A stretch of 34,987 bases of DNA from Oscillospiraceae bacterium (GCA_020866945.1 JAJBVW010000084.1:1-34987), one strand, 5' to 3'; positions 10,098 to 30,760 are shown, counted from the stretch's first letter. The notes: a model not told the origin generated them from the letters alone. A program made the numbers and translations.

Positions 10098-10532
10098 TCA
10101 GGCATAGGAATCATCTAAGCTGCGGAACATTGCTCCGCTGACGTCTACAATTTCATCAATCGGAATGTCCACACCGTCTTTCAGCACGACAAGCCTTTGC
10201 AACACGTCTATCCTCTTCACCCTACTGGTAACAGTGCGGTAAGCGCCACCCTCTTTGCGCGCATCGGGAACGAAGTAGGTGAGCTTCACCACAGGAGTCT
10301 CCGCCAGGTTTTCCTGGAGCAGACTTAGCCGCTCCGACAAACGCTGCTTCATCTCATCATCCAGCTCTATTCTCTGGTCAGTCAGCCGCGCAGTCTCTTT
10401 CACCGCGGCGTCGTAGCCGGTGAGCGCCGCGAAAGGTGAAAACTGCGCCGCTCGGTCGAGCATCGCCATATGCGGACGATTTTCCGAAACGTGATGAGGC
10501 AAGCCGATAATATCGCTGTACTCTTTTTTCAC
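10098..10532 (-). CDS. YolD-like protein (accessory partner of UvrX/YqjW-type Y-family polymerases)
   Basis: 144 aa. GTG start overlaps the polymerase stop (GTGA), with GGAGG 9 nt upstream. Size, position immediately downstream of a Y-family polymerase and sequence character match the B. subtilis yolD/yqjX arrangement. Confidence 0.65.
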   Translation of the reverse strand: MKKEYSDIIGLPHHVSENRPHMAMLDRAAQFSPFAALTGYDAAVKETARLTDQRIELDDEMKQRLSERLSLLQENLAETPVVKLTYFVPDARKEGGAYRTVTSRVKRIDVLQRLVVLKDGVDIPIDEIVDVSGAMFRSLDDSYA

Positions 10533-12046
10533 GCCTTATGTCCTCCGATTTGTGCGTTGCGTGCTTTGCCGGTGGCTCCTTCCTCCAGATTCATGCCTTT
10601 CAGCAGGGCGTCCTTCCCGTATTTTTCCCAAATGGAAAGAACCGCTTTCTGACGACGCTTTTCCTTTTCCATCGTTTTCTGTTCCTCTTTTCGCTTCCGC
10701 TCCAGAGCAGCATAGTCCGTGAACAGGTCAAGCTGCTCTGGTTCCGCAGGTTTGACCAGCCCCTCTTCAACGACGTGATTTGCGACCACATACATCCTGC
10801 GCACCAGCAGATTTGGTTCAACAATGCGGTCAAACAAGTCCATAACGGCCTTGGTAATCAGCCTTGTAGAGGATGTCTGACATCCCAGATTTGCGGAGCC
10901 ATGGGCCGGCTTTGGGATTTTTCTGCCGTAGTGGTCGGTGGTGACCTCGCCTTTATATGTCTTTTGCCGCCGGAGGTCGGTCAGATTTTCAACGTCATAT
11001 CCTATGGTCAGCACAATTTGATCGGTCTCCAATCCCTTGTCCACCAAATCCATGGAGAGCGCATCGGCCATTTCCCGGACGACCAGCTTGGCCTTTTCAA
11101 ATTCGTATGGCGATTGCAGCACCTGACCGGAGCTAATGCTGTTGTTTTCCGGTCTGTATGCTTTGATGTCTGCAATGCGGCAAGGCTCCCAGCCCCAGGC
11201 ATGGTCAATCAGCAGCTCAGCGTTAACGCCAAACTCCTTGTAAAGCCGGCTCTCGCCGCAGTCGCTGAGACTATATCTTGCAATATCGCCCATGGTATAA
11301 AGCCCCAGCTTCGCAAGTCGCCTGGCATAGCCGCGCCCCACGCGCCAGAAATCAGTGATGGGCTGATGCGCCCACAGCCTCTGCCGATAGCTAATTTCGT
11401 CCAGCTCCGCAATGCGCACGCCGTCCTTGTCGGCAGGAATATGCTTCGCGTCAATATCCATGGCAATCTTGCAGAGGTAGAGATTTGTTCCTATCCCGGC
11501 TGTGGCCGTGATGCCGGTCTGCTTTAAAACGGCCTGTATCATCTTCATAGCCAGCGCATGAGGCGTGAGCTGATAGGTTCGCAAATAATCGGTAACATCC
11601 ATGAACACTTCGTCGATGCTGTAAACATGAATGTCCTCCGGGGCAATGAAGCGAAGATATATCTGATAAATTTCCGTGCTGAACTGTATATAACGCGCCA
11701 TCTGCGGCATGGCCACGATGTAGTCCAGCGCCAGCGAAGGGTCAGCGGTGAGTTCACGGATGTCACAGGAGGAGCCGGTCAGCACCCCGCCCGGCGCGCG
11801 ACGCCGCCGTTCCCCGTTGACATCTCTCACCCGCTGGACAACCTCAAACAGTCTGGCACGGCCGGAGATACCATAGGTTTTCAGCGCCGGCGACACCGCA
11901 AGGCATATCGTTTTTTCCGTGCGGCTCTTGTCCGCCACCACCAGGTTGGTGGTCAGCGGGTCAAACCCGCGTTCCACGCACTCCACCGAGGCATAGAACG
12001 ATTTCAGGTCGATGGCAATATAGGTACGGTTCGTCAAGCGGTTCAC
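10529..12046 (-). CDS. Y-family (translesion) DNA polymerase, UvrX/YqjW/ImpB-like
   Basis: N-terminus YIAIDLKSFYASVECVERGFDPLTTNLVVAD, which contains the catalytic Asp. Little-finger region present. Beta-clamp binding motif QLDLF. C-terminal tail ...RNAQIGGHKA typical of this clade. The start is ambiguous: GTG at 12046, or TTG at 12037, which has better spacing from AAGAGG. Confidence 0.9.
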   Translation of the reverse strand: MNRLTNRTYIAIDLKSFYASVECVERGFDPLTTNLVVADKSRTEKTICLAVSPALKTYGISGRARLFEVVQRVRDVNGERRRRAPGGVLTGSSCDIRELTADPSLALDYIVAMPQMARYIQFSTEIYQIYLRFIAPEDIHVYSIDEVFMDVTDYLRTYQLTPHALAMKMIQAVLKQTGITATAGIGTNLYLCKIAMDIDAKHIPADKDGVRIAELDEISYRQRLWAHQPITDFWRVGRGYARRLAKLGLYTMGDIARYSLSDCGESRLYKEFGVNAELLIDHAWGWEPCRIADIKAYRPENNSISSGQVLQSPYEFEKAKLVVREMADALSMDLVDKGLETDQIVLTIGYDVENLTDLRRQKTYKGEVTTDHYGRKIPKPAHGSANLGCQTSSTRLITKAVMDLFDRIVEPNLLVRRMYVVANHVVEEGLVKPAEPEQLDLFTDYAALERKRKEEQKTMEKEKRRQKAVLSIWEKYGKDALLKGMNLEEGATGKARNAQIGGHKA

Positions 12047-12144
12047 CTCTTTTCATAATAAATGGCGGCCATGCCATTCCGCACTCCGTCGGCAGCACGA
12101 GGTTCGTCCGGTTCACGCTGTTCACCCTGGCGCCCATCCAATGA

Positions 12145-12216
12145 CGAACAAAATTTCATGAAACTGTTGACGCGAACAGATTTATGTGATAATATATAAA
12201 CACGAACATAATTTCG
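12145..12216. promoter_or_regulatory. Three phased operator-like boxes CGAAC-N4-TTTC/TTAT (degenerate Cheo/LexA-box-like)
   Basis: CGAACAAAATTTC (12145..12157), CGAACAGATTTAT (12173..12185) and CGAACATAATTTCG (12203..12216). Start-to-start spacing is 28 and 30 bp. Each differs from the Firmicute SOS box CGAAC-N4-GTTCG mainly in the right half-site. Confidence 0.5.
12167..12195 (+). promoter_or_regulatory. Putative promoter for the XRE/ImmA pair
   Basis: TTGACG (12167..12172), 17-nt spacer, TAATAT (12190..12195). The middle CGAAC box lies in the spacer. Confidence 0.4.
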
Positions 12217-12229
12217 CTTCAACAGGGCT

Positions 12230-12258
12230 ATTATAACAAGAGATACCGCATATGTCAA
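12230..12258 (-). promoter_or_regulatory. Perfect-consensus sigma-A promoter for the Y-family polymerase/YolD operon
   Basis: The minus strand reads TTGACA (12258..12253), tatgcggtatctcttgt (17 nt), TATAAT (12235..12230). Confidence 0.7.
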
Positions 12259-12280
12259 CACTTATTCATGAATAAGTGTT
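12257..12280. repeat. 24-bp perfect palindrome (candidate repressor operator)
   Basis: AACACTTATTCATGAATAAGTGTT is its own reverse complement. It abuts or overlaps the -35 of the polymerase promoter and lies about 25 nt upstream of the XRE start codon. Confidence 0.85.
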
Positions 12281-12305
12281 CGTATTTCCAGAAGAAAGGA
12301 TTCTT

Positions 12306-12722
12306 ATGTCGTTCAAAGACAGACTGAAAGAAAAAAGAACAGCGGCGCATATGACGCAGGCGGAGCTTGCGGCCAGGGCCGGCATTACTCCCCGTACCAT
12401 CCAGAATTATGAGCTTGGTACACGAAAGCCTGCCAACATGGAGATTGCCCAAAGGCTTGCGGAATCACTTCAAACAACGACCGAGTATCTGCTGGGCAGC
12501 GCGGGAACCTATGTCGTCGAAGCCCACGAAAAGGGCGGCGCACGCGTGGCGCGGGATATAGACGAGCTTGTAGGCGAGGTCACAGGAATGTTCACCGGCG
12601 GCGAGCTGAGCGAAGACGCGCTGGATGGGGCAATGAAGGCTCTGAACGATGCTTATTGGATTGCCAAGGAAAATAACAAACGATATGCTCCAAAGAAGAC
12701 GCAAAGGACTGCCGCAAAGTAA
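12306..12722 (+). CDS. XRE-family helix-turn-helix transcriptional regulator
   Basis: HTH_3 signature LKEKRTAAHMTQAELAARAGITPRTIQNYELGTRKP. AAAGGA RBS precedes the ATG at 12306. The tracked ORF begins 30 nt earlier. Confidence 0.85.
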   Translation: MSFKDRLKEKRTAAHMTQAELAARAGITPRTIQNYELGTRKPANMEIAQRLAESLQTTTEYLLGSAGTYVVEAHEKGGARVARDIDELVGEVTGMFTGGELSEDALDGAMKALNDAYWIAKENNKRYAPKKTQRTAAK

Positions 12723-12774
12723 CCGGCGTTTGTCATACAGGAACAGAATTATACGTTAGATCAAATCGAGGTGT

Positions 12775-13287
12775 ATGATGAACGCTGAACAATTATCACA
12801 GGTCGGGAACCGGCTGGTGAAGCGCTGCGGTACAAGAGACCCTTTTGAAATTTCCGAGCAGATTGGCATTAACATCATGTTCTGTGAGGACTTCGGGGCC
12901 TTGAAGGGGATGTACCGGGTCATTAAACGCAACCGTTTTATCTTTCTGAACAAGGATTTGGACGAGGATATGCTTCGCATTGTCTGCGCCCACGAGCTTG
13001 GTCACGACCAGCTGCACCGGCAAATGGCAAAGACCCACCCTATCCAGGAGTTTATGCTATATGACATGAAATCGGAGCCGGAGTATGAAGCAAACATTGT
13101 CGCGGCTGAGATTTTGATGGACAACGAGGAAGTGCTGAGCTATATCTTCGATTATGGATATACGGCGGAGCAAATCGCGAGGGCAATGTCCACTGACATC
13201 AACCTGGTGGCATTAAAGGTGGCGCATTTGGCAACGCTTGGGTATCCCCTTCGTCCGCTGGAGCATAAAAGCGATTTTTTGAAATAA
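12775..13287 (+). CDS. ImmA/IrrE-family zinc metallopeptidase (COG2856)
   Basis: HEXXH motif in CAHELGHDQLH, with a downstream E in the EYEAN region. Size and pairing with an upstream XRE gene are typical of ImmR/ImmA and DdrO/IrrE modules. Confidence 0.8.
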   Translation: MMNAEQLSQVGNRLVKRCGTRDPFEISEQIGINIMFCEDFGALKGMYRVIKRNRFIFLNKDLDEDMLRIVCAHELGHDQLHRQMAKTHPIQEFMLYDMKSEPEYEANIVAAEILMDNEEVLSYIFDYGYTAEQIARAMSTDINLVALKVAHLATLGYPLRPLEHKSDFLK

Positions 13288-13331
13288 AGTAATAAGCCAA
13301 AGTCTTTTCCTCCATTTTCGGAAAATTCCCG

Positions 13332-13360
13332 TTGACAGGGGCCGAAAAAGGCGGTATGAT
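13332..13360 (+). promoter_or_regulatory. Near-consensus sigma-A promoter for the pheA leader
   Basis: TTGACA (13332..13337), 17-nt spacer, TATGAT (13355..13360). Confidence 0.7.
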
Positions 13361-13392
13361 AGACCTACTCTTAATAAGGAGCGTTTTTGATA

Positions 13393-13449
13393 ATGTCCTT
13401 CACCTTTGCCGCGGAATTTACTTTCTTTTACTTTTGCAAGAAAAAGTAA
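13393..13449 (+). CDS. Phe-rich leader peptide (18 aa, MSFTFAAEFTFFYFCKKK), putative pheA attenuator peptide
   Basis: An ATG with AAGGAG 11 nt upstream. 6 of 18 codons are Phe, plus one Tyr. It lies between a promoter and a strong terminator directly upstream of pheA. Confidence 0.6.
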   Translation: MSFTFAAEFTFFYFCKKK

Positions 13450-13487
13450 AAGTGATTTCCCCTGCGGCAAGCTGAAAAGTCAACCCA

Positions 13488-13524
13488 AGCTGTGCAGTGA
13501 AGAAATCACTGCACAGCTTTTTTG
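13488..13524 (+). terminator. Intrinsic terminator in the pheA leader (attenuator)
   Basis: Perfect 13-bp stem AGCTGTGCAGTGA / agaaa loop / TCACTGCACAGCT, followed by TTTTTT. It ends 41 nt before the pheA start codon. Confidence 0.85.
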
Positions 13525-13565
13525 TATGTCTAATCAAATTTTTTGTTTTAAGAAAGGGAACCAAC

Positions 13566-14705
13566 ATGGAATTGGAACAGCTCAAACAGCAGATTGATGC
13601 CATTGACAGCCAGATGAGCCATCTGTTCGCGCAGCGTATGGCCGTCAGCGGCCAGATTGCCAAGGTTCGTGCAGCGGAGGGGCTGCTGCCGGACGCCGCC
13701 GGTATGCGGGATGCCCGCGCACGCTTTCAGGCCCAGGCCGGACAGGAGCTTGAGGATTATGCCGGCGTGATTTACAGCACCCTCCAGGACGTAAGCCAAA
13801 GCTATCAGACCGCCCTGGTACGGGGGAAAAGCCCCCTCTGCGACCGCATTGCCCAGGGCCTCGCGGACACACCTCCCCTGTTCCCGGAGAAGGCCACCGT
13901 GGCCTGTCAGGGCGTGGAAGGGGCCTTCGCCCAGATTGCCGTCCAGAGGCTGTTCCGGGAGCCTTCAATATCTTATGTAAACCGTTTTGAGGCCGTATTC
14001 TCCGCCATAGCCAACGGCTTTTGCCGTTATGGGGTGCTGCCTCTGGAAAACAGCACCGCCGGTTCTGTCAACAAGATATATGACCTGATGATGGAATACA
14101 ATTTCAGCATCGTCCGTTCCGTGCGTCTGAAGGTAGACCACAATCTGATGGCCCTGCCCGGCGCGAAGCTGGAGGACATCAAGGAGATTGTCTCCCACGA
14201 GCAGGCCATCGCCCAGTGCGCGGATTTCCTGAAATCCCACCCCAGCATTCATGTGACGGTGTGCGAAAATACCGCCGTGGCCGCAAAGATGGTAGCGGAA
14301 TCCGGCCGCCGGGATCTTGCGGCGCTTGCCTCTCACGACTGCGGCGCACTGTACGGCCTGCAGCCGCTGGCGGAGGGCATTCAGGACAAGGGCAACAATT
14401 ACACCCGCTTCATCTGCATCGGCAAAGACCTTGAGATATTCCCCGGCGCGGATCGCACAAGTATTATGTTAACTGTAAACCACAAGCCCGGCTCTCTCTA
14501 CCGGGTCATGGCCCGCATAAACGCGCTGGGCATCAACATGACCAAGCTGGAAAGCCGTCCTCTCCCCGACCGGGATTTCGAGTTCATGTTCTATTTCGAC
14601 CTGGATACCTCCGTCTATTCTCCTCGCTTCATTCAACTGATGGGCGGCCTGGAAAGTCTGTGCGAGACATTCAAGTATCTGGGAAGTTATACGGAAATTG
14701 TGTAA
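13566..14705 (+). CDS. pheA: Bifunctional chorismate mutase / prephenate dehydratase (P-protein)
   Basis: N-terminal CM_2 helix region (LKQQIDAIDSQMSHLFAQRMAVSGQIAKVR). PDT domain (VACQGVEGAFAQIA, LENSTAGSV, NYTRFICIG). C-terminal ACT domain with the ESRP motif (MTKLESRPL). I start it at MELEQL (AAGGGA RBS) rather than the tracked 13497, which would lie inside the terminator. Confidence 0.9.
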   Translation: MELEQLKQQIDAIDSQMSHLFAQRMAVSGQIAKVRAAEGLLPDAAGMRDARARFQAQAGQELEDYAGVIYSTLQDVSQSYQTALVRGKSPLCDRIAQGLADTPPLFPEKATVACQGVEGAFAQIAVQRLFREPSISYVNRFEAVFSAIANGFCRYGVLPLENSTAGSVNKIYDLMMEYNFSIVRSVRLKVDHNLMALPGAKLEDIKEIVSHEQAIAQCADFLKSHPSIHVTVCENTAVAAKMVAESGRRDLAALASHDCGALYGLQPLAEGIQDKGNNYTRFICIGKDLEIFPGADRTSIMLTVNHKPGSLYRVMARINALGINMTKLESRPLPDRDFEFMFYFDLDTSVYSPRFIQLMGGLESLCETFKYLGSYTEIV

Positions 14706-14774: not shown

Positions 14775-17186
14775 TTATTCCACTTTCTTCATATACCTGG
14801 ACGCCGCTTTCAGCATCAGGCGCTTCATCCCGGTGTCTTCAAATTCGATTTCCACCAGAAAATCCCCGCCCATGGGGGTCATTTTTTGTATAACACCGGT
14901 CTTGAAGGCGTTATGGATAACTCGGTCGCCCACCTTGTAATCCAGAACCGGCTTCCCCTGAGGCCGGGGCGGCGCGATGGTCTTTTTCTGCGATGACTGC
15001 CGTGTATCGCGCCGGGCTGCGCCGTCCGGCGTCCAGTCGTCCGCCTGAGGAACGTCCTCGAAGTCAAAATAGCTGTTTTTCAGCGACTGATAGGGCCGGT
15101 CGATATGCTCCGGCGGTATCTCGTCCACAAAGCGGCTGACCCGGTGCGGAGCCGTCTGGCCGAATACCATGCGCTGCCGGGCGCTGGTAATATAAAGCCG
15201 TTTTTTCGCGCGAGTGATGGCAACGTAGGCCAGACGCCGCTCCTCCTCCATCTGCTCCTGCTCCCCGATGGCCTGGAGGGACGGGAATATCCCTTCCTCC
15301 ATCCCGGCGATGAACACGGTGGGAAATTCCAGGCCTTTGGCGGAGTGAATGGTCATCATGGTAACGGTGTTCTCATCCAAATCCACATTTTGCAGGTCGG
15401 TATACAGGCTGACCTCATCCAAAAAGCCCGCCAGGGAATTGTCCCCCGTCTGGCGGACATGGGTGGCAATAAAGCTTTTCAGCTCCCGGACGTTTTCCAG
15501 CCGGTTCAGACTGTCCTCCGTGTGGGCCTCCTCCAGCAGACGGGCATAGCCGGTTTTTTCCAGCAGCGCGTCGTACAGCTCCTCCAGCCCGGCGGTCTGG
15601 GTCATTTGGGACAGCTCGTTCATCATCTGGGCAAAGGCTTTCAGCTTCTCCGCCGCACGGGACAGCTCCGGGAAATTACCCGCGATGGAGACGACGGTAA
15701 AGAGCGGTCCACCGTTCTGTGCAGCGATGGTTCTGGCCCGGTCAATGGTCGTCTGGCCGATGCCGCGAGGCGGCGTGTTGATAATACGCGTCAGGCGCAG
15801 GTCATCCGCCGGGTTCAGCAGTACGAAGAAATATGCCATCAAATCCTTGATTTCCGCCCGCTCAAAGAAGGGGTTTCCCTTCACAATCCGGGGGCGGATA
15901 CCGCTGCGCAGAAACGCCTGCTCCAAAGCGCGGGACTGCGCGTTCAGCCGATACAGCACCGCATGGTCTCGCAGATTGTCGCCCCGGTCTACAGCCTGAA
16001 GCACCTGGCGGACGATATATTGGGCTTCGTCCTCCTCGTTTTTCGCCACATAGAGTGTGATGCGGTCGCCCTCCCCCGCCTTCGTCCAAAGGCGCTTGCC
16101 CTTGCGCCCGGTGTTGTGGGCTACCACACCGTTGGCTGCCTCCAGGATATGTCCTGTGGAGCGATAATTCTGTTCCAGGCGAATCACGCGGGCGTTGTCA
16201 TACTGGTCTTCAAAGGACAGGATATTCTCAATGGTCGCGCCCCGGAATGCGTAGATAGACTGGTCGTCGTCACCCACCACGCATATATTCTTATGACCTC
16301 CGGCCAGAAGCGTCGCCAGCATATATTGCAGGTTGTTGGTGTCCTGATACTCATCTATCAGCACATAGCGGAACTTTCGCTGGTAATATTCCCGTACATC
16401 GGGAAACTCACGAAGAAGGCGAACGGTGTTATAAATCAGGTCCTCGAAATCCATGGCCCCCGCCTCCAGAAGCCGCTCGCTGTACGCCTGATACAGCTTG
16501 GCCGCACCCTGGAGCCGGAAATCTCCGGCCCGCTCTGCCAGGGCCATGAGCGCCTCCGGCGTCTGCATTCTATCCTTGGCCTTGTCGATAACGCCCAGCA
16601 CCCACTTGGGGGGATACATTTTTTCGTCCCGGTTCTGCTCCTTTACCAGGCGTTTCATAACAGCGGTGCGGTCGGCGGTATCATAAATGGTGAAGCTGCT
16701 GGGATAGCCCAGCTTCTCCCCATCCCGCCGCAGAATACGCACGCAGGCGGAATGGAATGTCCTGGCCCAGACCTCCTCCGCCGCCTCCCCCAGCATGGAG
16801 GAAAGCCTGTCCTTCAGCTCACCAGCCGCCTTGTTGGTGAAGGTAATAGCCAGTATCTGCCAGGGCGCCACCTGGTCATAGGCAGCGGCTTCCTCCGCCT
16901 GACGGCGCAGCTCCTGCTCCCCGTCCAGATACCGGCGCATAACGCGCAGCTTTTCCTCGTCTGCATCGGGGGGCAGTTCCCGGCAGTCGGATGCGCGGCC
17001 ATATTTCATCAGGTTCGCAATGCGGTTTATCAGCACCGTGGTCTTGCCGCTTCCGGCTCCGGCCAATATCAGCAGCGGCCCCTCCGTTGCCAGCACCGCT
17101 TCCCGCTGGCGGTCATTCAAATGGGGAAAGCTTCGGGCAATAACCTCCCGGCGCGTATCTATATAATTTTTCGTAAAACTATCCAT
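14775..17186 (-). CDS. pcrA: ATP-dependent DNA helicase PcrA (UvrD/Rep superfamily 1)
   Basis: Motifs GAGSGKTTVL, IDEYQDTN, NYRS, TIHSAKGLEF and VAITRAK. C-terminal Tudor-like tail (YKVGDRVIHNAFKTGVI). Start set at MDSFTKNY (17186). Confidence 0.9.
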   Translation of the reverse strand: MDSFTKNYIDTRREVIARSFPHLNDRQREAVLATEGPLLILAGAGSGKTTVLINRIANLMKYGRASDCRELPPDADEEKLRVMRRYLDGEQELRRQAEEAAAYDQVAPWQILAITFTNKAAGELKDRLSSMLGEAAEEVWARTFHSACVRILRRDGEKLGYPSSFTIYDTADRTAVMKRLVKEQNRDEKMYPPKWVLGVIDKAKDRMQTPEALMALAERAGDFRLQGAAKLYQAYSERLLEAGAMDFEDLIYNTVRLLREFPDVREYYQRKFRYVLIDEYQDTNNLQYMLATLLAGGHKNICVVGDDDQSIYAFRGATIENILSFEDQYDNARVIRLEQNYRSTGHILEAANGVVAHNTGRKGKRLWTKAGEGDRITLYVAKNEEDEAQYIVRQVLQAVDRGDNLRDHAVLYRLNAQSRALEQAFLRSGIRPRIVKGNPFFERAEIKDLMAYFFVLLNPADDLRLTRIINTPPRGIGQTTIDRARTIAAQNGGPLFTVVSIAGNFPELSRAAEKLKAFAQMMNELSQMTQTAGLEELYDALLEKTGYARLLEEAHTEDSLNRLENVRELKSFIATHVRQTGDNSLAGFLDEVSLYTDLQNVDLDENTVTMMTIHSAKGLEFPTVFIAGMEEGIFPSLQAIGEQEQMEEERRLAYVAITRAKKRLYITSARQRMVFGQTAPHRVSRFVDEIPPEHIDRPYQSLKNSYFDFEDVPQADDWTPDGAARRDTRQSSQKKTIAPPRPQGKPVLDYKVGDRVIHNAFKTGVIQKMTPMGGDFLVEIEFEDTGMKRLMLKAASRYMKKVE

Positions 17187-17305
17187 GCCTGTAAGTATAC
17201 CACACTTCCCCGCTCCATGGCTATATAAAATCCGAAATCTAACGTCAAAAAGAACGCCTTGCAATTTTCGTCCCATGCTCCTATAATACTACACGCTGGG
17301 CGGAT

Positions 17306-30325: not shown

Positions 30326-30401
30326 TGGTGGAGACGAAGGGATTCGAACCCTCGACCTCTCGGATGCGAACCGAACGCTCTCCCAGCTGAGCTACGCCCC
30401 C
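30326..30401 (-). tRNA. tRNA-Ala (anticodon CGC)
   Basis: The reverse complement is GGGGGCGTAGCTCAGCTGGGAGAGCGTTCGGTTCGCATCCGAGAGGTCGAGGGTTCGAATCCCTTCGTCTCCACCA, 76 nt. It folds as a cloverleaf with a G3:U70 Ala identity pair, anticodon loop TTCGCAT, a T-loop GGTTCGAATCC and an encoded CCA. Confidence 0.9.
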
Positions 30402-30480: not shown

Positions 30481-30760
30481 GCTCTGGAGCTGTACTAGTC
30501 GGGGAGCCAGCGGTGCCCTGTACCCGCAATCCGCTATAGCGGGGACGAACTCCTGCCCCCGGATATTCGATGTGTTGCCTGCCCGCAGCAAGTAGCGTTG
30601 ATGGCTCGGTCTTGCGCAACGGGAACCCGTGAACCATGTCAGGCGGGGAACCGAGCAGCATTAAGCGGGGCCTCCCGTGTGCCGTGAGGTCGCCGGGTCT
30701 GAGCCAACTACTGCGGTAACGGATGTGTCGAGTATACAAAGGCAGGTGTGCAGCTCTTTT
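30481..30760 (+). ncRNA. ffs: Signal recognition particle RNA, long Bacillus-type (scRNA with Alu domain)
   Basis: Long stretches parallel B. subtilis scRNA: GGGGAGCCAGCGGTGCCCTGTACCCGCAATCCGCTATAGCGGGG (Alu domain), GCGCAACGGGAACCCGTGAACCATGTCAGGCGGGGAACCGAGCAGCATTAAGCGG (domain IV) and GTGCCGTGAGG. The 5' GAGCTGTAC pairs with the 3' GTGTGCAGCTC. T-run at 30757..30760. Its position directly upstream of dnaX is the canonical Firmicute synteny. Ends are approximate. Confidence 0.9.

What the first reader, a model, noticed from the sequence alone, without database searches (positions are those of the whole stretch)
13332..13565. Phe-rich leader peptide plus terminator upstream of pheA: a ribosome-mediated attenuator in a Firmicute instead of a T-box
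Seen directly, in order:
- a near-consensus promoter, TTGACA-17-TATGAT
- AAGGAG followed by an 18-codon ORF, MSFTFAAEFTFFYFCKKK, with 6 Phe and 1 Tyr (13393..13449)
- a perfect 13-bp stem plus U6 terminator (13488..13524)
- pheA, starting 41 nt later

Alternative pairings exist. The Phe/Tyr codon stretch CTTTTACTTTT (13425..13435) is complementary to AAAAGTAAAAG (13442..13452), which spans the stop codon. AGTGATTTC (13451..13459) is complementary to GAAATCACT (13502..13510), which covers the loop and the first 5 nt of the terminator 3' arm. A ribosome stalled on Phe codons would free the 13442..13459 segment to compete with the terminator. A ribosome reaching the stop codon would mask that segment. 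This mirrors E. coli pheL-pheA logic. Firmicutes usually regulate aromatic amino acid genes with T-boxes or TRAP, and I see no T-box motif here.
Basis: partly seen in the sequence, partly recalled or inferred. Interest (0 to 1): 0.65.

Follow-up and report, generated by a model that had tools for sequence, protein, structure and literature searches.

The report
Phenylalanine leader-peptide attenuator before pheA
The DNA just before the phenylalanine-synthesis gene pheA in this gut Oscillospiraceae bacterium carries a conserved switch that looks like the classic E. coli one, in which ribosomes slowing on Phe codons of a tiny gene decide whether transcription stops or continues; this switch type is rare in Firmicutes, and this family is not in Rfam or in the papers I searched.

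Summary
The promoter is TTGACA-17-TATGAT. A Shine-Dalgarno site precedes an 18-codon ORF, MSFTFAAEFTFFYFCKKK. A 14-bp terminator stem follows, and pheA (chorismate mutase plus prephenate dehydratase) starts 41 nt after it.

The element is not a chance ORF. I found 16 distinct versions, always directly upstream of pheA, in uncultured Oscillospiraceae whose PheA is 65-95% identical to the window's. Each keeps the promoter, ribosome-binding site, ATG, a 17-19-codon frame with 4-7 Phe, the stop position and the terminator.

Three mutually exclusive structures are conserved:
- a 1:2 hairpin that pairs the Phe codons with the stop-codon region;
- the 3:4 terminator.

The terminator and the outer helix of the antiterminator show compensatory changes. 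Folding with a ribosome footprint gives the classical logic. A stall on most Phe codons favours the antiterminator. A ribosome at the stop codon blocks it.

No Rfam family matches, including T-box, Phe_leader and Leu/phe leader. No RNA data exist, so function is inferred.

The parts
13332..13360 (+). Sigma-70-type promoter: TTGACA (13332-37), 17-nt spacer, TATGAT (13355-60). The inferred transcription start is near 13367.
   Evidence: TTGACA-17-TATNAT-like is conserved in all 15 leaders examined.
13376..13381 (+). Shine-Dalgarno site (AAGGAG) of the leader ORF.
   Evidence: A GGAG-type site lies upstream of the leader ATG in nearly all relatives.
13393..13449 (+). Leader ORF (pheL-like), MSFTFAAEFTFFYFCKKK*. 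Phe codons are at 13399, 13405, 13417, 13423, 13426 and 13432.
   Evidence: The frame, a length of 17-19 codons and the core F-x-x-E-F-x-F-F-[YT]-F are conserved. The five ORF differences from the closest relative, L161, are all synonymous third-position changes.
13400..13475 (+). The 1:2 hairpin (anti-antiterminator or pause-type hairpin). Segment 1 (13400-13435, within the ORF, including the Phe codons) pairs with segment 2 (13442-13475, stop codon and downstream). Alone it folds at -27.8 kcal/mol.
   Evidence: The upper helix, FF[YT]F codons with [KR]-stop, is conserved at 9-11 of 11 anchored positions in all 15 leaders, with T:A to C:G changes at two positions.
13451..13510 (+). The 2:3 antiterminator. 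13451-13473 pairs with 13488-13510, that is, the terminator's 5' arm, loop and first 5 nt of its 3' arm. It folds at -20.1 kcal/mol.
   Evidence: One search gives the structure; outer helix 88% paired against 80.7 +/- 1.6 for shuffles (0/500), and 4 of 9 pairs have changes on both sides; z = -5.2 against shuffled segment 2.
13487..13523 (+). The 3:4 intrinsic terminator: a 14-bp perfect stem (13487-13500 with 13506-13519), loop AGAAA and a T6 run (13518-13523). It folds at -23.3 kcal/mol.
   Evidence: A terminator is present in every leader. Six of 11 consensus pairs show compensatory changes.
13566..14705 (+). pheA, a bifunctional chorismate mutase / prephenate dehydratase of 379 aa. It is the regulated gene and is monocistronic, since the next gene (14775-17276) is a convergent UvrD/PcrA-type helicase.
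   Evidence: Pfam PDT 1.5e-55 and CM_2 6.5e-08. Homologues are named chorismate mutase/prephenate dehydratase.

Best explanation
This is a classical leader-peptide (ribosome-mediated) transcription attenuator that adjusts pheA transcription to the supply of charged tRNA-Phe.

Transcription starts near 13367, and a ribosome translates the 18-codon leader.

- **Phe plentiful.** The ribosome runs to the TAA at 13447. Its footprint covers 13451-13459 (GUGAUUUC), so segment 2 cannot pair with the terminator region. The 14-bp terminator forms and RNA polymerase stops at the U-run near 13523.
- **Phe-tRNA scarce.** The ribosome stalls on one of the six Phe codons inside segment 1. This opens the 1:2 hairpin and leaves segment 2 free. 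Segment 2 (13451-13473) pairs with the terminator's 5' arm, loop and upper 3' arm (13488-13510) as they emerge. The terminator cannot form and pheA is transcribed.
- **No ribosome.** The 1:2 hairpin holds segment 2 and the terminator forms.

Shown here: the sequence features, their conservation, covariation in the terminator and in the outer antiterminator helix, and the thermodynamic switch under footprint constraints.

Inferred: that the ORF is translated, that termination occurs, and that readthrough responds to Phe.
For: - **Anatomy** was verified.
- **Linkage to pheA.** I found 16 distinct leaders, always directly upstream of pheA. The flanking genes differ: ImmA/IrrE, rnfB, an MS channel, peptidase S9 and Dabb. 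The unit that travels together is therefore leader plus pheA.
- **Specificity.** A profile HMM of the leader hits nothing else in 818 kb of related loci or in the rest of the window.
- **Translation signals.** The promoter, Shine-Dalgarno site and ATG are conserved. ORF length changes only by whole codons (17-19). The distance from the stop to the GAU of segment 2 is fixed at 6-8 nt.
- **Coding constraint.** The window and L161 (PheA 95% identical) differ at five ORF positions, all third-position and synonymous. Five Phe codon columns are kept in 12-14 of 14 leaders (three of them in all 14). The three codons after the last conserved Phe are highly variable, with 12 different codons in the first of them.
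- **Structures.** Six of 11 terminator pairs are compensatory. For the outer antiterminator helix, 4 of 9 pairs change on both sides, the covariation score is 0.337 against 0.189 +/- 0.028 (0/500 shuffles), and slid registers pair at 48% or less. The antiterminator duplex is far stronger than with shuffled segment 2 in 13 of 15 leaders.
- **Switch logic**, measured on nascent RNA ending 5 nt into the 3' arm. With a footprint on a Phe codon, the antiterminator probability is 0.6-1.0 at most stall sites. The exceptions are the last one or two Phe codons in L161, L166 and L164. With the footprint on the stop codon it is 0.00 in all 15 leaders. With no ribosome it is about 0 in 10 of the 15.
- **Natural deletions.** L002-L004 keep the homologous promoter and pheA ribosome-binding site but lack exactly the roughly 155-nt leader, so it behaves as a discrete regulatory module.
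Against: - There are no transcript, Term-seq or ribosome data. No public RNA run holds this sequence.
- All carriers found are uncultured MAGs or metagenome contigs.
- Across the whole family, third codon positions are no more variable than first and second positions (entropy 0.66 against 0.68 and 0.68). Much of the ORF's conservation could therefore be explained by RNA pairing alone.
- At full-length equilibrium the terminator always wins (probability above 0.9 at almost every stall site in 13 of 15 leaders). As in E. coli, the mechanism therefore depends on kinetics and probably on a polymerase pause, which I could not test.
- Bacillota are classed at phylum level as having 'runaway' transcription that outpaces ribosomes (PMC13323073). 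That would work against ribosome-controlled attenuation unless the polymerase pauses in the leader.
- In 3 to 5 leaders (clearly L162, L165 and L007; partly L176 and L167) the antiterminator is favoured even without a ribosome.
Confidence: 0.8

Rival explanations
1. A translation-independent structured RNA. The conserved hairpins and terminator would form a riboswitch-like or protein-bound attenuator, and the Phe-rich ORF would be a by-product of U-rich strands pairing with A-rich strands.
For: Codon-position entropy across the family shows no excess at third positions. Most conserved ORF nucleotides lie in helices. The leader is very strongly structured (z = -7).
Against: The Shine-Dalgarno site, ATG, frame-preserving indels and fixed stop position are conserved. 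All five differences between the window and L161 are synonymous. Helix positions outside Phe codons change by compensation, while Phe codons change only between TTT and TTC. No Rfam family matches, including T-box, at E <= 10 in the window or E <= 1 in 11 other leaders. The leader, about 100 nt before the terminator, has no conserved multi-helix junction or internal-loop core of the kind aptamers have.
Confidence: 0.07
2. The small ORF encodes a functional hydrophobic micropeptide with its own terminator, for example a membrane peptide or type I toxin-like product. Its position next to pheA would be incidental.
For: The peptide is short and aromatic/hydrophobic, with a basic C-terminus. It has its own strong promoter and terminator.
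Against: It is found only directly upstream of pheA, on the same strand, in 16 distinct contexts with different upstream neighbours. It was not found elsewhere. The C-terminal residues are hypervariable, including charge reversals such as KKK, ETR, EER and NGR. The stop codon and downstream sequence are built into alternative pairings with the terminator. No antisense RNA or antitoxin feature was seen.
Confidence: 0.03
3. A ribosome-dependent attenuator that reports general translation speed (for example antibiotic or stringent stress, as with erm- or vmlR-type leaders) rather than Phe specifically.
For: The same architecture would respond to any stall within segment 1. Antibiotic-responsive leader peptides are the commoner kind in Firmicutes (background in PMC2965389).
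Against: The regulated gene is always pheA. Phe makes up 4-7 of 17-19 codons, against about 4% Phe in the window's genes. The Phe positions are the most conserved codons.
Confidence: 0.05
4. A decayed or constitutively terminating or read-through leader with no present regulatory role in this genome.
For: Some relatives have lost the element cleanly (L002-L004). One has an insertion of about 270 nt between the terminator and pheA (L185). The element is therefore dispensable.
Against: The window copy is intact in every part and among the best: a perfect 14-bp stem, a T6 run and a perfect 9-bp outer antiterminator helix. Purifying selection is visible against L161.
Confidence: 0.04

Closest known systems
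pheL-pheA attenuator of E. coli and other Gammaproteobacteria (Rfam Phe_leader RF01859; Gurvich et al. 2010, PMC3082878)
   Same: Both have a short leader ORF rich in Phe codons and 1:2 (pause), 2:3 (antiterminator) and 3:4 (terminator) pairings. In both the terminator lies just upstream of a bifunctional chorismate mutase/prephenate dehydratase gene. The position of the ribosome, on the Phe codons or at the stop codon, selects the structure.
   Different: There is no detectable homology: no Rfam hit at E <= 10 in the window or E <= 1 in 11 other leaders. Phe codons are spread out (F3, F5, F9, F11, F12, F14) rather than in a run of 7. The stop codon sits inside the 1:2 hairpin, opposite the FF[YT]F codons. 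The host is Bacillota (Oscillospiraceae). A 2010 survey of the 200 nt upstream of pheA in all sequenced bacteria found such leaders outside Proteobacteria only in Bacteroides and Desulfobacterium (PMC3082878).
Predicted His-leader attenuators in Firmicutes (Bacillus cereus group hisS/hisZ; Peptostreptococcaceae including C. difficile; Erysipelotrichales) - PMC2965389, PMC9413887
   Same: They are classical leader peptide plus terminator/antiterminator elements in Firmicutes. They were identified by comparative genomics, in lineages that lack the usual T-box or repressor.
   Different: They sense a different amino acid and control a different operon, and the sequences are unrelated. I found no experimental validation reported for either in the passages I read.
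Leu/phe leader motif of Lactococcus lactis (Rfam RF01743; Weinberg et al. 2010, PMC2864571)
   Same: It is a Firmicute cis-regulatory leader classed as a peptide leader involving Phe and Leu codons.
   Different: Its covariance model does not match this leader. It is confined to Lactococcus. I did not examine its gene context here.
T-box riboswitch (Rfam RF00230), the usual amino-acid sensor in Firmicutes
   Same: It occupies the same position, a 5' leader ending in a terminator/antiterminator choice. It also reads the same signal, the charging state of a tRNA. T-boxes are recorded upstream of chorismate mutase/prephenate dehydratase genes in other species (table in PMC2836559).
   Different: No T-box match was found at any threshold used. 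The leader is too short for Stem I plus a specifier loop. It carries a translatable ORF with a Shine-Dalgarno site, so sensing would be through the ribosome and not by direct tRNA binding.

Membership tests
Classical leader-peptide (ribosome-mediated) transcription attenuators | Short ORF with its own ribosome-binding site and start codon in the 5' leader of a biosynthetic operon | tested here: met
   AAGGAG at 13376-81 and ATG at 13393, giving an 18-codon ORF. The Shine-Dalgarno site, ATG and a 17-19-codon frame are conserved in 16 distinct leaders.
Classical leader-peptide (ribosome-mediated) transcription attenuators | Regulatory codons for the amino acid made by the downstream genes are over-represented in the ORF | tested here: met
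   The window's leader has 6 Phe in 18 codons, and relatives have 4-7 in 17-19. Phe makes up about 4% of codons in the window's genes. This is the only short ORF with 6 Phe in the window. The downstream gene is pheA.
Classical leader-peptide (ribosome-mediated) transcription attenuators | Intrinsic terminator between the leader ORF and the first structural gene | tested here: met
   A 14-bp stem plus a T-run at 13487-13523. A terminator is present in all leaders. Six of 11 pairs show compensatory changes.
Classical leader-peptide (ribosome-mediated) transcription attenuators | An antiterminator (2:3) mutually exclusive with the terminator, and a 1:2 pairing that overlaps the regulatory codons and the stop codon | tested here: met
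   The structures are given. Covariation of the outer 2:3 helix is. The conserved 1:2 upper helix is.
Classical leader-peptide (ribosome-mediated) transcription attenuators | The geometry lets a ribosome at the regulatory codons free segment 2 and a ribosome at the stop codon mask it | tested here: met
   In footprint-constrained partition functions for 15 leaders, the antiterminator probability is 0.6-1.0 at most Phe stall sites and 0.00 at the stop codon. The distance from the stop to the segment 2 core is constant at 6-8 nt.
Classical leader-peptide (ribosome-mediated) transcription attenuators | Termination and readthrough shown to respond to the cognate amino acid and to leader translation | not testable with these tools
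   No RNA run holds the sequence. This needs Term-seq and reporter assays.
Rfam Phe_leader (RF01859) / Leu/phe leader (RF01743) | Match to the family covariance model | tested here: not met
   No hit to either family at E <= 10 in window 13200-13700, at the gathering score in the window, or at E <= 1 in 11 leader-bearing loci.
T-box riboswitch (RF00230) | Match to the T-box covariance model (Stem I with specifier loop, and the conserved T-box sequence in the antiterminator) | tested here: not met
   No T-box hit.

The most novel reading that the evidence does not exclude
This would be an independently evolved pheL-type attenuator family, absent from Rfam and from the 2010 pan-bacterial pheL survey. 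It is confined to a clade of uncultured gut Oscillospiraceae. Working ribosome-controlled attenuation there would mean that ribosome and polymerase are coordinated at leaders in a phylum currently classed wholesale as having 'runaway' (uncoupled) transcription. Natural variants that lack the leader (L002-L004) would offer ready-made comparisons.
Probability: 0.6. Interest if true: 0.55.

Novelty: new member of a known kind. Interest (0 to 1): 0.45.

Why it matters
**Regulation of amino-acid genes.** Firmicutes are textbook users of T-boxes, TRAP and repressors for these genes. Classical leader-peptide attenuation is considered mainly proteobacterial and actinobacterial. A well-conserved Phe leader in Clostridia adds a clean case with covariation support. 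It shows that the same solution as E. coli pheL arose again without sequence homology.

**Transcription-translation coupling.** Ribosome-mediated attenuation requires the ribosome to keep up with the polymerase in the leader. This element therefore gives a concrete test of whether pausing restores coupling in a phylum described as transcribing ahead of its ribosomes.

**Annotation.** The element is unannotated. It causes at least one wrong pheA start call, in L164. A covariance model built from these 16 leaders would let it be annotated in gut metagenomes.

Tried and rejected
- **RNA evidence.** Two searches of public runs found only two small runs of unknown type holding 11-14% of the sampled words, and no RNA run holding any. 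I did not lay reads.
- **Plasmid collection.** No match.
- **Metagenome scan with the PheA alignment.** The closer relatives came from exact-protein look-ups instead.
- **RNAalifold on the plain MAFFT alignment.** It recovered only the terminator, because one-nucleotide register shifts (TAC or ACC codon types, one-codon indels) blur the 1:2 and 2:3 helices. I therefore anchored short ungapped blocks on invariant GAT and TC motifs.
- **Codon-position entropy across the family.** It did not show the third-position excess expected of ordinary coding sequence. I do not count it as support. The coding evidence rests on the closest pair, the translation signals and frame conservation.
- **Equilibrium folding of the complete leader.** The terminator wins whatever the footprint, so thermodynamics of the full RNA cannot discriminate. 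Only nascent-transcript states do.
- **Rejected as the main antiterminator.** The weak pairing of CTGC (13462-65) with GCAG (13494-97) acting alone. It is part of the larger hairpin.
- **Rejected: Tyr co-sensing.** The single Tyr codon alternates with Thr (ACC) in half the leaders. It tracks the base before the stop codon (AAG or AGG), so it is a pairing constraint.

Full report
**Observation.**
- The promoter is TTGACA (13332-37), a 17-nt spacer and TATGAT (13355-60).
- AAGGAG lies at 13376-81.
- The ORF at 13393-13449 encodes MSFTFAAEFTFFYFCKKK, with 6 Phe and 1 Tyr.
- The terminator is in fact a perfect 14-bp stem (13487-13500 with 13506-13519) with a 5-nt loop and a T6 run (13518-23).
- The pheA ATG is at 13566, 41 nt after 13524.
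- Both stated complementarities are exact.

pheA encodes a 379-aa chorismate mutase plus prephenate dehydratase. It is monocistronic, because the next gene is a convergent UvrD/PcrA-type helicase. The leader folds far better than shuffles (z = -7.0). No Rfam family, including T-box, matches it.

**Source organism and relatives.** The closest PheA proteins come from uncultured Oscillospiraceae. I collected 185 pheA loci in three ways: a genome scan, a metagenome scan and exact-protein look-ups.

A Phe-rich short ORF upstream of pheA occurs only in loci whose PheA is 65-95% identical to the window's. There are 16 distinct versions. Examples are MSFIFTAEFNFFYFYPKK, MRFGFTAEFSFFTFARQK, MRFFTAEFRFFTFPETR, MRFVFAVEFNAFYFRKKK and MTRRFTAEFILFTFGNRR.

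The upstream neighbour varies among ImmA/IrrE, rnfB, an MS channel, peptidase S9 and Dabb. The downstream gene is always pheA. A profile HMM of the leader finds nothing else in 818 kb of these loci or in the rest of the window. Of 24 short ORFs with at least 5 Phe in all loci, 21 are this leader.

Loci with PheA at 64% identity or less lack it. So do L180-182 (67%) and L002-L005 (74%). L002-L004 keep the homologous promoter and pheA ribosome-binding site and lack exactly the roughly 155-nt leader. It therefore behaves as a discrete module that can be lost.

**Evidence that the ORF is read.**
- All leaders keep TTGACA-17-TATNAT-like, a GGAG-type Shine-Dalgarno site (AAGGG in L179) and ATG.
- ORF length changes only by whole codons, from 17 to 19.
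- The stretch from the conserved F-[TA]-[AV]-E-F to the stop is 14 codons in every case.
- The stop codon lies a fixed 6-8 nt before the segment 2 core GAU.
- The window and L161 (PheA 95% identical) differ at five ORF positions, all third-position and synonymous.
- Five Phe columns are kept in 12-14 of 14 leaders, three of them in all 14, and change only between TTT and TTC. The three codons after the last conserved Phe are highly variable.

One caveat applies. Across the family, third positions are not more variable than the others, because most of the ORF is also helix. The conserved non-Phe residues (T/A-A/V-E) are explained by pairing of GCNGAAUU with segment 2.

**Structures.** In the window the three alternative structures are as follows:
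- 1:2 is 13400-13435 with 13442-13475 (-27.8 kcal/mol). Its upper helix pairs the FFYF codons with AAAAGUAAAAG, across the stop codon.
- 2:3 is 13451-13473 with 13488-13510 (-20.1 kcal/mol).
- 3:4 is 13487-13500 with 13506-13519 (-23.3 kcal/mol).

The inner part pairs segment 2 with the whole 5' arm of the terminator. The antiterminator can therefore start forming before the 3' arm exists, as in textbook attenuators.

Conservation and covariation of each structure:
- **Terminator.** Six of 11 consensus pairs have compensatory changes.
- **Outer 2:3 helix**, aligned on the invariant GAU and UC. It is 88% paired against 80.7 +/- 1.6 in column shuffles (0/500). The covariation score is 0.337 against 0.189 (0/500). 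Slid registers pair at 48% or less. Four of 9 pairs change on both sides; for example, U:A, C:G and G:C all occur at one position.
- **2:3 duplex energy.** It beats nearly all of 300 dinucleotide shuffles of segment 2 (at most 5 as good) in 13 of 15 leaders, with z from -2.9 to -5.2.
- **1:2 upper helix.** It is present in all 15 leaders, paired at 9-11 of 11 anchored positions, with linked T:A to C:G changes. These changes explain why Tyr (UAC) goes with Lys-stop (AAG UAA) and Thr (ACC) goes with Arg-stop (AGG UAA).

**Switch logic.** I placed a 30-nt footprint on each Phe codon, on the stop codon or nowhere. I then computed pair probabilities in the nascent RNA that ends 5 nt into the 3' arm.
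- With the footprint on a Phe codon, the outer antiterminator helix has probability 0.6-1.0 at most stall sites in the 15 leaders. In the window it is 0.99-1.00 for F3 to F12 and 0.62 for F14. The last one or two Phe codons of L161, L166 and L164 give 0.04-0.18.
- With the footprint on the stop codon it is 0.00 in all 15.
- With no ribosome it is about 0 in 10 of 15, because 1:2 holds segment 2.

In the complete leader at equilibrium the terminator dominates almost regardless of footprint. As in E. coli, the decision must therefore be kinetic.

**Comparison with known systems.** The element works like the gammaproteobacterial pheL-pheA attenuator (PMC3082878), but no homology is detectable. 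That paper's survey of the sequence upstream of pheA in all bacteria sequenced by 2010 found candidates outside Proteobacteria only in Bacteroides and Desulfobacterium.

Leader-peptide attenuators in Firmicutes are rare but predicted. Known cases are his leaders in the B. cereus group, Peptostreptococcaceae and Erysipelotrichales (PMC2965389, PMC9413887) and the Lactococcus Leu/phe leader (PMC2864571).

Twenty related pheA loci scanned with Rfam have no T-box or other known RNA upstream. In this lineage the leader is therefore not visibly a replacement for a T-box.

Bacillota are classed at phylum level as transcribing ahead of their ribosomes (PMC13323073). A working ribosome-dependent attenuator therefore probably needs a leader pause.

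**Limits.** Nothing here shows transcription, termination, translation or a response to Phe. No public RNA run contains the sequence, and all carriers found are uncultured. I put 0.8 on the attenuator model. The remainder is split among four rivals: a translation-independent RNA element, a general translation-speed sensor, an inactive relic and an unrelated micropeptide gene.

Noticed in passing
L002:1760-1870, L003:2400-2512, L004:2400-2512 compared with L001:1990-2225: Close relatives (PheA 85-87% identical to L001) keep the homologous promoter (TTGACA...GGTATCATT) and pheA ribosome-binding site, but lack exactly the roughly 155-nt leader ORF, hairpins and terminator. These are natural attenuator-less variants.
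   Followed up: yes
L185:1-1000 (same PheA protein as L183 and L184): About 270 nt is inserted between the attenuator's terminator and the pheA ribosome-binding site. The insert begins with an inverted repeat (CTTTGTAATACTTTTTC...GAAAAAGTATTACAAAG), so it may be a small mobile or repeat element.
   Followed up: no
L164:2001-2024 (proteins P0003 and P0004, 386-387 aa): The called PheA start is an ATG inside the tail of the attenuator terminator (TTTTTTGTTATGTGG). The start homologous to the other PheA proteins is the ATG 21 nt downstream. The unannotated leader probably caused a wrong start call.
   Followed up: partly
window 10529-13287: A Y-family (ImpB/MucB/SamB) polymerase gene lies on the minus strand (10529-12046). 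It is followed on the plus strand by an XRE-type HTH gene (12276-12722) and an ImmA/IrrE M78 peptidase gene (12775-13287). That pair is typical of prophage or mobile-element and stress-response switches. This neighbourhood is not shared by the other leader-bearing loci.
   Followed up: no
window 30329-30401 (-) and 30490-30753 (+): A tRNA gene and a bacterial large SRP RNA (210 bits). The SRP RNA type is consistent with a Firmicute host.
   Followed up: no
L162, L165, L007 (partly L176, L167) leaders: In these leaders the antiterminator is already favoured in nascent RNA without any ribosome, with probability 0.8-0.98. By default they would read through and would need a ribosome at the stop codon to terminate. 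The other leaders terminate by default.
   Followed up: partly
window 13376-13400: The minimum-energy fold pairs the leader's Shine-Dalgarno site (AAGGA) with 13396-13400 in a small hairpin. The 5' ends of the relatives printed fold differently, and I did not evaluate this further.
   Followed up: no
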